Shown here: in pieces, positions 19,466 through 22,400 of the stretch | How the letters are laid out: each line of letters opens with the position of its first letter | Position numbering within the stretch: position 1 is the first letter of the stretch | NCBI GenBank assembly: GCA_947465765.1 | Contig: CANIAP010000003.1 | Coordinates: 39,393-103,392, forward strand | DNA: 64,000 nucleotides | Origin: a bacterium | GTDB taxonomy: Bacteria; Margulisbacteria; Marinamargulisbacteria; SXXA01 | Direction: 5' to 3' | Translations under genes and position numbers: made by a program | The notes under the pieces: model-generated | Seen by the model: the letters and a program-made list of their open reading frames with translations, nothing else | Database searches by the model: none | What the model was told of the DNA's origin: nothing

Positions 19466-22400
19466 CTACTCCCGCAATCGAATCACCCGATCCCTAAATT
19501 GTTCCACCAGAAGGACCAACTCCGAGCCGGTGGACTGACTCCCCAATAGGCGCTTTGCGAGGACCGCGAGTTCCTCATCGCCCGACGGCAGGGTATGGGT
19601 TTGCTGGTCTTCGAGGAGCTGCAAAAAATGTTCCAATCGGCGAAACAGGAGATAAACCTCTCGGATTTCGTAGGCCAATCCATCGGCGACCACGCCACAG
19701 TCACGAAGCCGTTCCAATGCCGGAAGGGTCCGTCGAATCCATAGCTGGGGGTATCGGTCGAGATGAGAGAGCTGTAATCCTTGAACCCAAAATTCGATAT
19801 CCCGAATTCCACCGGCCCCGTTTTTGATATCGACGCCGCTACCCAATCGCCGTGCTGATTTTCGGATTGCCGCGACCCGCAATTCTCTAATGGTCGACAC
19901 CAATTCCTTGGCTGGAAAACGGGCCAGTCCCGACCGCTTAAGGTCTTCCAGTACGTCAAACCCGATGGCCCAATTGCCGGCAACGGGACGCATTTTTAAG
20001 AGGGCCTGAATCTCCCATTTTGAGGCGGAGTGTGCGTAATATGCGGTGAGCCCCGTGGTCGATGTAACCCATTGGCCCGAGGCCCCGAATGGCCGCAGAG
20101 AGTAGTCCATTCGATAACATTGGCCTTCGTCGGTGAACTCCGACAAATCGGCGTTGACCTGTCGCAAAATCGATTCGATTTGGGTGGTGACGTTGTTTAA
20201 GGATTCTTCTGGAATGCCAGAGAGATCAATAATGGGGATGAGGTCGATATCCGAGCTGTAATTGAGTTCGGTTGCGCCCAGTTTCCCCATTGCCATCATG
20301 CAAAACCGATCGGCCAAGGTGTACGGATCTTCCGGTAGCCGCTTAAAGGCGAAGTCGACACAGGCTTGAATGGCCGACTCTGCGACCAAGGAGATGTCTT
20401 GGTAGATTTCCGGCATCGCAATTTGCAACGTAATATCTTTGATGGCGATTCGGAGCAATTCCCTGCGCTTAAAGAGTCTAAGGCGATTTCGCCACTCCCT
20501 CACCGACTGAGCGGATTGGGCAATTTCCGACAATTCCACAGTGGCACTTCCGCGCAAAAATCGGTGATGGAGATATCCTTTTTGTGTGATTGCCCCAAAA
20601 AACTCGGGGTGTCGGATTAAGGTGTCGGATAAAAATTGACTCACGGAAAAGACGTCTAACAAAATATCGAGCCGAATGGGTTGGCTCAACAATAAATTAA
20701 AATGGTCGGCAGGATCGGACATCTGGGAGACAAATCGCTCCCAATTATTGAGCGCCATGTCGGGGTCCGGTTTATGCCGTAGCCATTCGCAGGCCAAAAC
20801 CACCAATCGTGAAAAATGAGCGGGGCTTCGATCGGCAGCGGCCAAACGCATCAAATTAGCCTCAGCGCGGGCGGGGTCTCGGAATCCGGCGTCGCGGAGG
20901 ACTTTTAAACGAAGCTCGGTGGGAATGCTCGGGTTTAACACAAGGTCGGCGACGTTCGCGAAGGATTGGGATGGCAATGATTGGCGGGAAAAATGGGTTT
21001 GGAGGAAGGTTCTTGCGGTGGCGGTAACGGCTTCGAATTCCATGTGGAGCTGATCGGCGGCGGATAAATGATCCACCCCGTGGTATCCCATTCGACGGGC
21101 CAAATGGTCGTATTCAAGCGAGGCGACGTCGGGTAAAAAGAGATCCTCAGCGGATCCCCGCAGCATTCGGAGGCCGTTGGTGAGTCGCCGCAAAAAGATA
21201 TAGGCCACGATGATTTGAGCCGTTTCTTCTGCGTTGAGAATCCCGGCCTTACGCAATGCAGTCAACGCTTCTCGGATTCTGGGGGTTCTCAGACTTTGAA
21301 GCTTTCGGCCGAGCATAATTTGAAGTGCTTGAACGGTGTATTCGATATCGACCAACGCCCCGGGGCTAAATTTGGCATTCAATCGGGTCGGGGCTTTTTC
21401 TTGGAATTGTTTTTTTCGAAGTTGCCAGAGTTCAGAAAAATCAAAATTGTCGGTGCCATAGACAAACTCATCACGAAGTTTTTCAATTCGTTGTCCGAGC
21501 TGAAGATGTCCGGAAATTCGTCGAAGGCGAACCAGGGCCAATTTTTCATAGATATGGGCGGGGCCATCGGGCCCAAAATAGCGGCAAAAGTTCTCGACGC
21601 TGACGGCCAATGGGCCATCGCTGCCATAGGGACGGAGCCTCAAATCGATATCAAAAATGCCCGATCGTTTCGAGACTATAAACTGCCGTAGCTCGCGCAC
21701 CAACTCCGAAAAAAAGTCAGAATTAGAGATGGGGGATGGGCCGTCAGTTAACCCGTTATCGCTGTACACCAATAGCAATTCGATGTCGGACGCGTAGCCC
21801 AATGCCGCACCGCCGAGTTTCCCCAATCCAAATACGGCGTAGTGAGCGGGGATAATTCCGACGGTCATCGGCGTTCCGTGGCGCCTAATGAGTTCCTCCA
21901 TCAAAAGCCTAATGGCGGTACCGATGACGGCTTCGACGAGGAGTGTCAGTTGTTTCGACAGTTTGAGAATGTCCGTCTGCTCCAAGATATGGCTGAGGTC
22001 GATGAGGAACGTTTCGTGGTCTTTAAATTGGTTAACGATTTGTTTTTTGGCATCCAAATCGGTGACCGGTGCCAGCGCAGCGTCGAGCCGATGTTGGATC
22101 GTGGTTTCTCCCGTGTAAACCGGGGTTTGGTCCGCCTGGGGGCCCAGAACCGGGAGCAATGATTCATAGTGGAGGCGGATGACGTCTTCCCAGAGGTAGT
22201 CACTGGTTCCCAATAATTTAGCCATATCACGGAGTGCCAGTGGGTTAGATAAAAGTTCGATCCATTGGCCTTTTTCGGGGAGTTCCAATATCGAGGTGAC
22301 TAATTGTTCGAATCGGGAAATGGCGTCGAATGGGTTGGGGGCGCGGTCTAGAAAAAAGGTGAACTGTTTGCATAATAAAACCGACAATCGAAGTTGGTCC

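What the first reader, a model, noticed from the sequence alone, without database searches (positions are those of the whole stretch)
19466..21900. GlnE with apparently reversed catalytic-domain order
As I recall, in E. coli GlnE the N-terminal adenylyl-removase carries GKLGG.ELNFSSDID / GGIREIEF and the C-terminal transferase carries GKLGG.ELGYSSDLD. Here the first domain has LGYASDIE, GIFDIDLRLRPYG and GALVDIEY (transferase-like). The second has LNYSSDID, G.CYRMDYSLRPFG and GAGGIRDIEF (removase-like). This implies a circularly permuted AT-then-AR enzyme.
Basis: partly seen in the sequence, partly recalled or inferred. Interest (0 to 1): 0.62.

Follow-up and report, generated by a model that had tools for sequence, protein, structure and literature searches.

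The report
GlnE with swapped halves plus sensor
This gene encodes a glutamine-synthetase on/off-switch enzyme (GlnE) whose two opposing catalytic halves sit in the reverse of the textbook order behind a built-in pair of small-molecule-sensing ACT domains. It belongs to a widespread family, not described in any paper I could find, in which the same three modules also occur in a second order and as two separate genes.

Summary
The ORF at 19466-23218 (minus strand, 1250 aa) has three parts: a GlnD-like tandem ACT pair, a first GlnE nucleotidyltransferase unit ("AT*") and a second unit (AR).

- **Second unit is AR-type.** It groups with adenylyl-removing domains in trees, in HMM scoring (120/120 homologues) and in signature residues, including the Asn equivalent to E. 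coli N169, which is reported to be essential for AR activity.
- **First unit is AT-type.** It has Gly at that position, as E. coli AT does (G697). It scores AT-like in 120/120 homologues and lies on the non-AR side of the tree. Its catalytic motif is an invariant D-x-E instead of D-x-D.
- **The modules are shuffled elsewhere.** Planctomycetes and Anaerolineae encode AR-ACT2-AT*. Nitrospira encodes ACT2-AT* and AR as two divergent neighbouring genes. The window protein is collinear with those two Nitrospira proteins joined head to tail.

So this is a genuine domain-level cyclic permutation, most simply explained by gene fission and re-fusion.

The host genome has a type I glutamine synthetase with the adenylylation tyrosine. 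Like its close relatives, it has no PII and no GlnD. This suggests the ACT pair senses the signal directly; that step is inferred.

Caveat: AU tests support the AR/AT assignment only moderately (p 0.03-0.26).

The parts
19466..23218 (-). Complete ORF of 1250 aa plus stop: an ACT2-AT*-AR ('type I') GlnE-family protein.
   Evidence: ORF list and translation. Pfam finds 2x PF03710 and 2x PF08335. More than 100 full-length homologues of about 1250 aa exist. The same-genus genome G040 has the same 1251-codon frame.
22319..23218 (-). N-terminal sensor module, residues 1-300: a short helical lead followed by two ACT-type units, roughly residues 56-167 and 203-288. It is GlnD-C-terminus-like.
   Evidence: NCBIfam GlnD models match residues 15-280 at model positions about 615-840 of 850 (E 2e-17 to 7e-22). 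Pfam ACT is weak (E 0.004, below cut-off). The AlphaFold2 model has pLDDT 89.4 and pTM 0.87, with two beta-alpha-beta-beta-alpha units. Top Foldseek hits are ACT-containing proteins: L-GDH180 N-terminal region, threonine dehydratase regulatory domain, SerB2 and PGDH. The module aligns with those of types II and III.
21041..22261 (-). First GlnE unit, 'AT*' (residues 320-726): helical lead, nucleotidyltransferase core and PF08335 helical domain. It is the predicted adenylyltransferase.
   Evidence: HMM envelope 320-726. PF03710 match at window 21482-22228. Best PDB match is 3K7D, the E. coli AT domain. It scores 268.7 bits on the AT HMM and 241.9 on the AR HMM. It falls in the AT* clade with 100/99 support.
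21779..21823 (-). Catalytic motif of AT*: G466-X11-D478-X-E480 (GKLGGAALGYASDIE). G474 occupies the position of E. coli AT G697 and AR N169.
   Evidence: Gly and Glu are invariant in 120/120 homologues and in 30/30 named AT* domains.
20702..21040 (-). Inter-unit segment, residues 727-839. It corresponds to the N-terminal helical lead of a stand-alone AR protein and contains PDPDMALNNWERF (residues 816-829).
   Evidence: BLAST: window residues 739-1225 are collinear with residues 7-515 of the separate Nitrospirales AR protein, which carries the same DPDQ-LN-WER motif near its N-terminus.
19508..20701 (-). Second GlnE unit, AR (residues 840-1237): the predicted adenylyl-removing (phosphorolytic deadenylylating) domain.
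   Evidence: HMM envelope 840-1237. PF03710 match at window 19961-20662. It scores 151 bits against 1V4A, and 162 versus 106 bits against the E. coli N- and C-terminal halves. It scores 314.7 bits on the AR HMM and 292.0 on the AT HMM. It nests within the AR clade.
20243..20287 (-). Catalytic motif of AR: G978-X11-D990-X-D992 (GKLGATELNYSSDID). N986 is equivalent to E. coli N169.
   Evidence: Asn is invariant in 120/120 second units and in 120/120 canonical AR domains. The requirement of N169 for AR activity is cited in PMC4454073.

Best explanation
**What it is.** The gene encodes a bifunctional regulator of glutamine synthetase (GS) from the GlnE family. Its module order is ACT-ACT / adenylyltransferase-type unit (AT*) / adenylyl-removing unit (AR). 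Textbook GlnE runs AR then AT.

**Shown here.**
- The second unit is an orthologue of AR domains.
- The first unit belongs to a distinct clade that is always linked to an ACT pair. It lies on the AT side of the AR/AT duplication. It has Gly at the N169 position and a D-x-E catalytic motif.
- The same three modules occur elsewhere as AR-ACT2-AT* and as two adjacent, divergently transcribed genes (AR; ACT2-AT*).
- The window protein therefore equals 'Nitrospira ACT2-AT* protein + Nitrospira AR protein' fused head to tail. It is a domain-level cyclic permutation of AR-ACT2-AT*.

**Inferred.**
- AT* transfers AMP from ATP to the conserved tyrosine of the genome's type I GS (DIYDLPPEE) and switches the enzyme off.
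- AR removes the AMP by phosphorolysis.
- The ACT pair binds a nitrogen-status ligand, most likely glutamine as in GlnD, and sets the balance between the two activities.
- In this lineage, which has neither PII nor GlnD, that would make the protein a self-contained sensor and switch.
- The rearrangement most simply arose by gene fission and re-fusion in the other order. No duplication intermediate was seen.
For: **Architecture.**

**AR identity of unit 2.** BLAST gives 162 versus 106 bits. HMM scoring favours AR in 120/120 homologues. AR-only invariant residues are present. The AR clade has 93/98 support.

**AT-side identity of unit 1.**
- G474 follows the published N169/G697 class rule.
- HMM scoring favours AT in 120/120 homologues.
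- The split {canonical AR + unit 2} | {canonical AT + unit 1} has 96/94 support.
- AU rejects the same-order topology (p 0.027) and independent duplication (p 0.036).
- AT* plus 10 canonical AT domains group at 96/88.

**Modularity.**
- Types I, II and III were classified in 80 named loci.
- AR-only genes sit beside ACT2-AT* genes in 11/11 Nitrospira-type loci.
- Collinearity BLAST gives 428 and 416 bits for the head of the window protein and 206-209 bits for its tail.
- The AT* clade has 100/99 support and type I AR + type II AR group at 99/63.

**A working cycle is plausible.**
- The only GlnE domains in this genome and in the 97%-complete same-genus genome are these two. An AR domain would have nothing to act on unless AT* adenylylates.
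- GS-I with the target Tyr motif lies 27 kb away on the same contig.
- GlnE occurs only in genomes with GS-I: 18/18 in the class.

**Sensor.** GlnD-like ACT sequence matches and the predicted fold.

**No PII or GlnD.** PII is absent from this genome and all 5 same-family genomes, including ones 96-97% complete. Apart from the ACT hit inside glnE itself, GlnD is absent from all type I genomes of the class. The one class member with a canonical AR-AT GlnE has two PII genes and a full GlnD.
Against: - Pairwise BLAST of unit 1 slightly favours the E. coli N-terminal half (121 versus 108 bits).
- AU tests are only moderately decisive. A tree with canonical AT domains monophyletic, excluding AT*, is not rejected (p 0.26; p 0.068). 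AT* could therefore be a sister lineage rather than nested in AT.
- AT* has Glu in place of the second catalytic Asp, and no member of this clade has been assayed.
- Outside this lineage most type I-III genomes do have PII (26/28) and many have GlnD. The ACT pair is therefore not a general replacement for that cascade.
- The ligand of the ACT pair is unknown.
- The genome is only 75% complete, although near-complete relatives give the same picture.
Confidence: 0.78

Rival explanations
1. The order is canonical after all. Unit 1 would be a divergent AR and unit 2 an AT that acquired AR-like motifs by convergence.
For: BLAST of unit 1 gives 121 bits to the E. coli AR half and 108 bits to the AT half.
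Against: Unit 1 lacks the Asn reported to be essential for AR activity, in 120/120 homologues. Unit 2 has every AR-only invariant residue and nests within AR domains. HMM scoring contradicts this reading in 120/120 homologues for both units. AU rejects the topology at p 0.027. In type II proteins the same AT* module follows an N-terminal AR domain.
Confidence: 0.03
2. AT* is neither AT nor AR in function. It could be a third paralogue that, with its ACT pair, acts as a regulatory pseudo-enzyme or transfers a different nucleotide or targets a different protein, leaving only the AR domain acting on GS.
For: AT* forms a long-branched clade of its own (branch 0.6-1.3) with an unusual D-x-E motif. 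AU cannot exclude that it lies outside canonical AT domains. No member has been characterised (paper searches found nothing).
Against: The whole catalytic set is invariant across 20 diverse members: G466, K467, S477, D478, E480, D525, R529, K616 and E626. D-h-[DE] is within the Pol-beta nucleotidyltransferase signature (my own knowledge of that superfamily). Without an AT, the strictly conserved AR domain would have no substrate, and this genome and its 97%-complete congener have no other GlnE domain. AT* scores as AT by HMM. It occupies the AT slot in type II proteins.
Confidence: 0.14
3. The two units arose by an independent internal duplication within this family and are not orthologous to the canonical AR and AT domains.
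For: Some lineages do show their two halves clustering together: Actinomycetota L083 and L109, and the alphaproteobacterial case reported in PMC4454073.
Against: The two units of the window protein are the most dissimilar pair tested (78 bits). Trees never join them. AU rejects the grouping at p 0.036.
Confidence: 0.03
4. The long ORF is an assembly or annotation artefact that fuses two genes.
For: Split versions do exist in Nitrospira, and one NCBI record splits a close homologue into 641-aa and 503-aa pieces.
Against: A single uninterrupted frame of about 1250 aa is conserved in more than 100 clusters from independent assemblies, in the same-genus genome and in named MAGs of five phyla. The exact protein was seen on 19 contigs.
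Confidence: 0.02

Closest known systems
E. coli GlnE (GS adenylyltransferase / adenylyl-removing enzyme; structures 1V4A for the AR domain and 3K7D for the AT domain)
   Same: It has two homologous PF03710 + PF08335 nucleotidyltransferase units, one with the AR-specific Asn (N169 = N986 here) and one with Gly (G697 = G474 here). The G-X11-D-X-[DE] motifs are present. A type I GS with the adenylylation Tyr motif is present in the genome.
   Different: The order of the units is reversed (AT-type first, AR last). A 300-aa ACT pair is added at the N-terminus. The AT-type unit has D-x-E rather than D-x-D. The total length is 1250 aa against 946 aa. It scores below the NCBIfam equivalog cut-offs (429 against 487 bits). 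This genome has no PII or GlnD partners.
GlnD (PII uridylyltransferase/uridylyl-removing enzyme), C-terminal tandem ACT domains
   Same: Residues 15-280 match the last ~230 positions of the GlnD models (E down to 7e-22). The predicted fold is tandem ACT. In GlnD these domains are implicated in glutamine sensing (my own knowledge).
   Different: There is no GlnD nucleotidyltransferase or HD domain. The ACT pair is N-terminal to the catalytic units rather than C-terminal. The ligand is untested.
AR-ACT2-AT* proteins ('type II') of Planctomycetaceae, Anaerolineae, Caldilinea and KSB1 (loci L054-L065, L084)
   Same: They have the same three modules. Their AT* carries the same Gly and D-x-E. Window residues 1-745 align with type II residues 512-1204 at 38% identity. 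The AR domains of the two types are sister clades.
   Different: The AR module is N-terminal in type II, so the window protein is its cyclic permutant. I found no publication describing either form.
Split system of Nitrospira/Nitrospirales ('type III'): an ACT2-AT* gene with a divergently transcribed AR-only gene next to it
   Same: Window residues 1-745 are collinear with the whole ~760-aa ACT2-AT* protein (35% identity, 428 bits). Window residues 739-1225 are collinear with the whole ~560-aa AR protein.
   Different: It consists of two polypeptides encoded on opposite strands. The window gene is a single fused chain.

Membership tests
GlnE (bifunctional GS adenylyltransferase/adenylyl-removing enzyme) | Two PF03710 nucleotidyltransferase domains, each followed by a PF08335 helical domain | tested here: met
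   Pfam: PF03710 at 5e-86 (2 stretches) and PF08335 at 3e-32 (2 stretches). Two full units at residues 320-726 and 840-1237.
GlnE (bifunctional GS adenylyltransferase/adenylyl-removing enzyme) | One unit of AR class (Asn at the E. coli N169 position) and one of AT class (no Asn requirement; Gly in E. coli) | tested here: met
   N986 in unit 2 and G474 in unit 1. Both are invariant in 120 homologues. The class rule comes from PMC4454073.
GlnE (bifunctional GS adenylyltransferase/adenylyl-removing enzyme) | Domain order: AR N-terminal, AT C-terminal | tested here: not met
   The AT-type unit comes first and the AR unit last.
GlnE (bifunctional GS adenylyltransferase/adenylyl-removing enzyme) | G-X11-D-X-D catalytic motif in both units | tested here: not met
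   The AR unit has G978-X11-D990-X-D992. The AT* unit has G466-X11-D478-X-E480, with Glu invariant. This is a conservative variant, not a loss of the acidic residue.
GlnE (bifunctional GS adenylyltransferase/adenylyl-removing enzyme) | Reaches the curated equivalog score of the NCBIfam GlnE models | tested here: not met
   NF008292: 429 bits against a cut-off of 487. NF010707: 393 against 625. NF010706: 328 against 724.
GlnE (bifunctional GS adenylyltransferase/adenylyl-removing enzyme) | A type I GS substrate with the adenylylation tyrosine is encoded in the genome | tested here: met
   A 475-aa GS-I at G000:C3:31134-32228 carries ...KDIYDLPPEE.... In the class, GlnE is found only in genomes with GS-I.
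GlnE (bifunctional GS adenylyltransferase/adenylyl-removing enzyme) | Control by PII / PII-UMP (GlnB/GlnK with GlnD) | tested here: not met
   There is no PF00543 hit and no full GlnD in this genome or its five family relatives, including ones 96-97% complete. Other type I genomes do have PII.
GlnE (bifunctional GS adenylyltransferase/adenylyl-removing enzyme) | Measured AMPylation and phosphorolytic de-AMPylation of GS | not testable with these tools
   This needs enzyme assays.
ACT domain (tandem, GlnD-type) | Sequence match to ACT or GlnD C-terminal models, and a beta-alpha-beta-beta-alpha-beta fold | tested here: met
   Pfam ACT alone is below its cut-off (17.3 against 27 bits). GlnD models match at E 2e-17 to 7e-22 over both units. 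The AlphaFold2 model has pLDDT 89.4. Foldseek hits are ACT-containing proteins at E 4e-5 to 2e-3.
GlnD (PII uridylyltransferase) | GlnD-type nucleotidyltransferase domain plus HD domain, N-terminal to the ACT pair | tested here: not met
   Only model positions about 615-841 of 850 are matched. The protein is not a GlnD.

The most novel reading that the evidence does not exclude
ACT2-AT* would be an undescribed, autonomous glutamine-sensing GS-AMPylation module, with AR as a freely re-positionable partner: fused in front, fused behind, or encoded separately. In lineages such as this one, which have lost PII and GlnD, the single ACT2-AT*-AR polypeptide would replace the entire GlnD-PII-GlnE cascade. 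That would be the simplest known reversible covalent control circuit for nitrogen assimilation.
Probability: 0.45. Interest if true: 0.72.

Novelty: new variant of a known kind. Interest (0 to 1): 0.62.

Why it matters
GlnE is a textbook example of a bifunctional covalent-modification switch, and almost everything known about it comes from Proteobacteria and Actinobacteria with the AR-AT order and PII control.

This analysis shows a large, phylogenetically broad subfamily. Members were found in Desulfobacterota, Planctomycetota, spirochaetes, Nitrospirota, Anaerolineae and Caldilinea, Lentisphaerota, Fibrobacterota and KSB1, as well as in this small-genome lineage. The subfamily differs from the model in three ways:
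- The AT unit is always coupled to a GlnD-like ACT pair.
- The AT unit uses D-x-E.
- The AR unit can sit on either side or be a separate protein.

Three consequences follow:
1. The natural 'experiment' indicates that the two activities need not be in a fixed order, or even on one chain.
2. It offers a candidate PII-independent sensing mechanism that can be tested directly with recombinant protein.
3. Current annotation ('glutamate-ammonia-ligase adenylyltransferase', Pfam GlnE x2) hides three different architectures.

Tried and rejected
- **Pairwise BLAST of halves** was decisive for unit 2 but ambiguous for unit 1, so I moved to profile and tree methods.
- **Strict class-diagnostic column search** (>=70% conserved in both canonical classes) gave only four columns and a mixed signal. 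In my canonical reference set the AT position equivalent to N169 is variable (N 61, S 23, G 17 of 120), so 'Gly = AT' is not universal. The informative fact is that AR always has Asn.
- **AU tests on three groups.** Constraining AT* onto the AR side did not reject (p 0.068 and 0.26). I then realised this constraint only forces canonical AT domains to be monophyletic. With three clades it cannot separate 'sister of AT' from 'sister of AR' without a root. The four-group tests are the valid ones.
- **Using an E. coli locus as a centre** for a phylum-wide genome search failed, because the tool needs a G handle. I obtained canonical references through the in-class canonical GlnE of G028 instead.
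- **'ACT-GlnE generally replaces PII/GlnD'** was tested on 28 named genomes and rejected as a general rule. It holds only for the window's own lineage.
- **Duplication-truncation intermediate** with three GlnE units: none found. The only three-hit protein (P0165) and locus L042 are split hits.
- **Organism name** could not be obtained from cluster members; they are labelled only '[bacterium]'.
- **Six literature searches** found no description of ACT-fused, reversed or split GlnE.
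Full report
**1. What is at the coordinates**

The finding lies in one ORF on the minus strand, 19466-23218, of 1250 aa. Pfam finds two GlnE nucleotidyltransferase domains (PF03710) and two PF08335 helical domains. A profile built from the four E. coli and query halves delimits two complete units at residues 320-726 and 840-1237.

An AlphaFold2 model of residues 1-300, built on a 21-sequence alignment, has pLDDT 89.4 and shows two beta-alpha-beta-beta-alpha units. Its best Foldseek hits are ACT-containing proteins: the large GDH N-terminal region, the threonine dehydratase regulatory domain, SerB2 and PGDH.

**2. Which unit is which**

I translated E. coli glnE from NC_000913.

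Pairwise BLAST:

| Query unit | vs E. coli N-terminal (AR) half | vs E. coli C-terminal (AT) half |
|---|---|---|
| Unit 2 | 162 bits | 106 bits |
| Unit 1 | 121 bits | 108 bits |

Unit 2 is clearly AR-like. Unit 1 is ambiguous.

PDB search gives 1V4A (AR domain) for residues 855-1220 and 3K7D (AT domain) for residues 305-683.

For a larger test I collected 120 full-length homologues of the window protein. I also collected 118 canonical-length GlnEs, found through the canonical 1008-aa GlnE of a genome in the same class, G028. I split all of them into units.

- **HMM scoring.** HMMs of canonical first (AR) and second (AT) units classify all 120 second units of the long family as AR, by 31 bits on average. 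They classify all 120 first units as AT, by 26 bits on average.
- **Column statistics.** At the E. coli N169 position, canonical AR has Asn in 120/120, long-family unit 2 has Asn in 120/120, and long-family unit 1 has Gly in 120/120. At the Q385 position, AR and unit 2 have Gln in 100%, while AT has Arg in 90% and unit 1 has Arg in 100%. The Arg of GGIR, the Arg of YRVD and the Pro of KARP are shared by AR and unit 2 only.
- **Published class rule.** N169 is reported as essential for AR but not AT activity. N169/G697 is reported as the only class-specific residue pair (Khater & Mohanty 2015, PMC4454073).
- **Variant motif.** Unit 1 also has an invariant Glu at the second catalytic acid (D-x-E).

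**3. Trees**

- A FastTree of all 480 units splits {canonical AT + unit 1} from {canonical AR + unit 2} with support 0.998.
- IQ-TREE (LG+C20+F+G4 PMSF) on 92 units gives the same split at UFBoot 96 / SH-aLRT 94.
- AU tests reject the same-order topology (delta lnL 25.9, p 0.027) and independent duplication (delta lnL 24.9, p 0.036).

These p-values are moderate. Two later tests forced AT* away from canonical AT domains. They did not reject (p 0.068, p 0.26). With three clades that constraint only asks whether canonical AT domains are monophyletic.

The honest reading has two parts:
- Unit 2 is firmly inside the AR clade.
- Unit 1 is firmly outside the AR clade, on the AT side. Its nesting within canonical AT domains (96/88) is likely but not proven.

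**4. The decisive extra evidence: the same modules in other arrangements**

A scan of GTDB genomes with the family alignment returned 80 named loci. I classified their units with the AR, AT, AT* and ACT profiles. Four architectures appear.

| Type | Architecture | Size | Where found |
|---|---|---|---|
| I | ACT2-AT*-AR | ~1250 aa | Lentisphaerae, Spirochaetales, a Planctomycetota MAG, Deltaproteobacteria, Fibrobacteres, and the window |
| II | AR-ACT2-AT* | ~1230 aa | Planctomycetaceae, Anaerolineae, Caldilinea, KSB1 |
| III | ACT2-AT* alone, with an AR-only gene alongside | ~760 aa and ~560 aa | Nitrospira/Nitrospirales |
| IV | Canonical AR-AT | ~1000 aa | Many phyla |

In type III, an AR-only gene lies immediately alongside on the opposite strand in 11 of 11 loci (Pfam).

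All AT* units carry Gly plus D-x-E, in 30/30 named domains. They form one clade with 100/99 support. The AR units of types I and II are sisters at 99/63.

Collinearity BLAST:
- Window residues 1-745 match the entire Nitrospira ACT2-AT* protein (35% identity, 428 bits) and type II residues 512-1204 (38% identity, 416 bits).
- Window residues 739-1225 match the entire stand-alone AR protein, including its N-terminal DPDxALNxWER motif.

The window protein is therefore a head-to-tail fusion of the two modules that type II carries in the opposite order. It is a domain-level cyclic permutation. Because type II keeps AR in front and AT* in the canonical AT slot, it gives position-based support that AT* is the AT paralogue.

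The existence of the split form makes fission and re-fusion the simplest route. No three-unit duplication intermediate was seen. Which arrangement is ancestral is unresolved: in the AT* subtree the Fibrobacteres type I unit branches first.

**5. Function in this genome**

- The genome (1.2 Mb, 75% complete) has no other GlnE domain. Neither does the 97%-complete genome of the same genus.
- A type I GS with the adenylylation motif DIYDLPPEE lies about 27 kb away on the same contig, outside the window.
- Across 55 genomes of the class, GlnE occurs only where GS-I occurs.
- PII (PF00543) is absent from this genome and all five genomes of its family. It is present in only 2 of the 17 class genomes whose GlnE is not the canonical form.
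- The single genome with a canonical AR-AT GlnE (G028) has two PII genes and the only full-length GlnD.

This fits direct sensing by the ACT pair in this lineage. However, it is not a family-wide rule. Among 28 named type I-III genomes, 26 have PII. GlnD is present in 3/10 type I, 6/10 type II and most Nitrospira genomes.

**6. Mechanism, with status of each step**

Shown:
- module identities and order;
- conservation of all catalytic residues in both units across diverse members;
- presence of a GS target;
- absence of PII and GlnD in this lineage.

Inferred:
- AT* (G466-X11-D478-X-E480) AMPylates the GS tyrosine.
- AR (N986, D990, D992) removes the AMP by phosphorolysis.
- The ACT pair binds glutamine or another nitrogen signal and biases the two activities.

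D-h-[DE] is within the Pol-beta-type nucleotidyltransferase signature (my own knowledge), so the Glu is compatible with catalysis. A strictly conserved AR domain with no AT anywhere in the genome would be pointless, which argues that AT* is active.

**7. Comparison with the known and novelty**

The protein is a GlnE-family member by domain content. It fails four canonical features: domain order, the D-x-D motif in the AT unit, the NCBIfam equivalog scores (429 against 487 bits) and PII partnership.

Databases label these proteins simply 'glutamate-ammonia-ligase adenylyltransferase'. Six full-text searches found no description of an ACT-fused, reversed or split GlnE. The one study that classified AR and AT domains by HMM does not mention them. 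I rate it a new variant of a known kind.

**8. Limits**

- No enzyme from the AT* clade has been assayed.
- The phylogenetic signal at the deepest node is moderate.
- The canonical reference set is mostly metagenomic, with E. coli as the only experimentally characterised anchor.
- The full-length protein exceeded the 1200-aa limit of the structure tool.
- The phylum name (Margulisbacteria, from earlier notes of this scan) was not verified here.

Noticed in passing
L046, L048-L053, L064, L066, L071, L097 (Nitrospira/Nitrospirales loci); e.g. L049 4151-5884 (-) and 5857-8226 (+): GlnE is split into two divergently transcribed neighbouring genes in 11 of 11 loci. One is an AR-only protein of about 560 aa and the other an ACT2-AT* protein of about 760 aa. 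I found no description of this split in the searchable literature.
   Followed up: partly
L054-L060, L062, L065, L084 (Planctomycetaceae, Anaerolineae, Caldilinea, KSB1): These loci encode a third architecture, AR-ACT2-AT*. The ACT pair is inserted between the two GlnE units, at the place of the E. coli linker/regulatory region.
   Followed up: partly
L083 and L109 (Actinomycetota MAGs): The two GlnE units of each protein cluster with each other rather than with the AR and AT classes. This suggests gene conversion or an independent duplication. PMC4454073 reports similar behaviour for some alphaproteobacterial GS-ATases.
   Followed up: no
window 23222-24031 (-): A 269-aa polysaccharide deacetylase (PF01522, E 8e-16) with an N-terminal hydrophobic segment ends 3 nt before the glnE start codon. 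The two genes are probably co-transcribed, with no obvious functional link.
   Followed up: partly
G028 (same class), L034 2425-5451 and neighbours: This is the only genome of the class with a canonical AR-AT GlnE (1008 aa). It is also the only one with a full GlnD and two PII genes. Its AT unit is unusually divergent (GKWGCREPGFFSDLD) and sits on a long branch.
   Followed up: partly
P0051: A 1264-aa type I homologue is deposited as 'Thermoproteota archaeon' (MFC1752113.1). A bacterial-type GlnE in an archaeal MAG probably reflects a binning error, or otherwise a horizontal transfer.
   Followed up: no
NBV83310.1 / NBV83309.1 (cluster of P0002): In one NCBI record the closest homologue (80% identity) is annotated as two pieces of 641 aa and 503 aa. 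This is probably a frameshift or contig problem in that assembly, not a real split.
   Followed up: no
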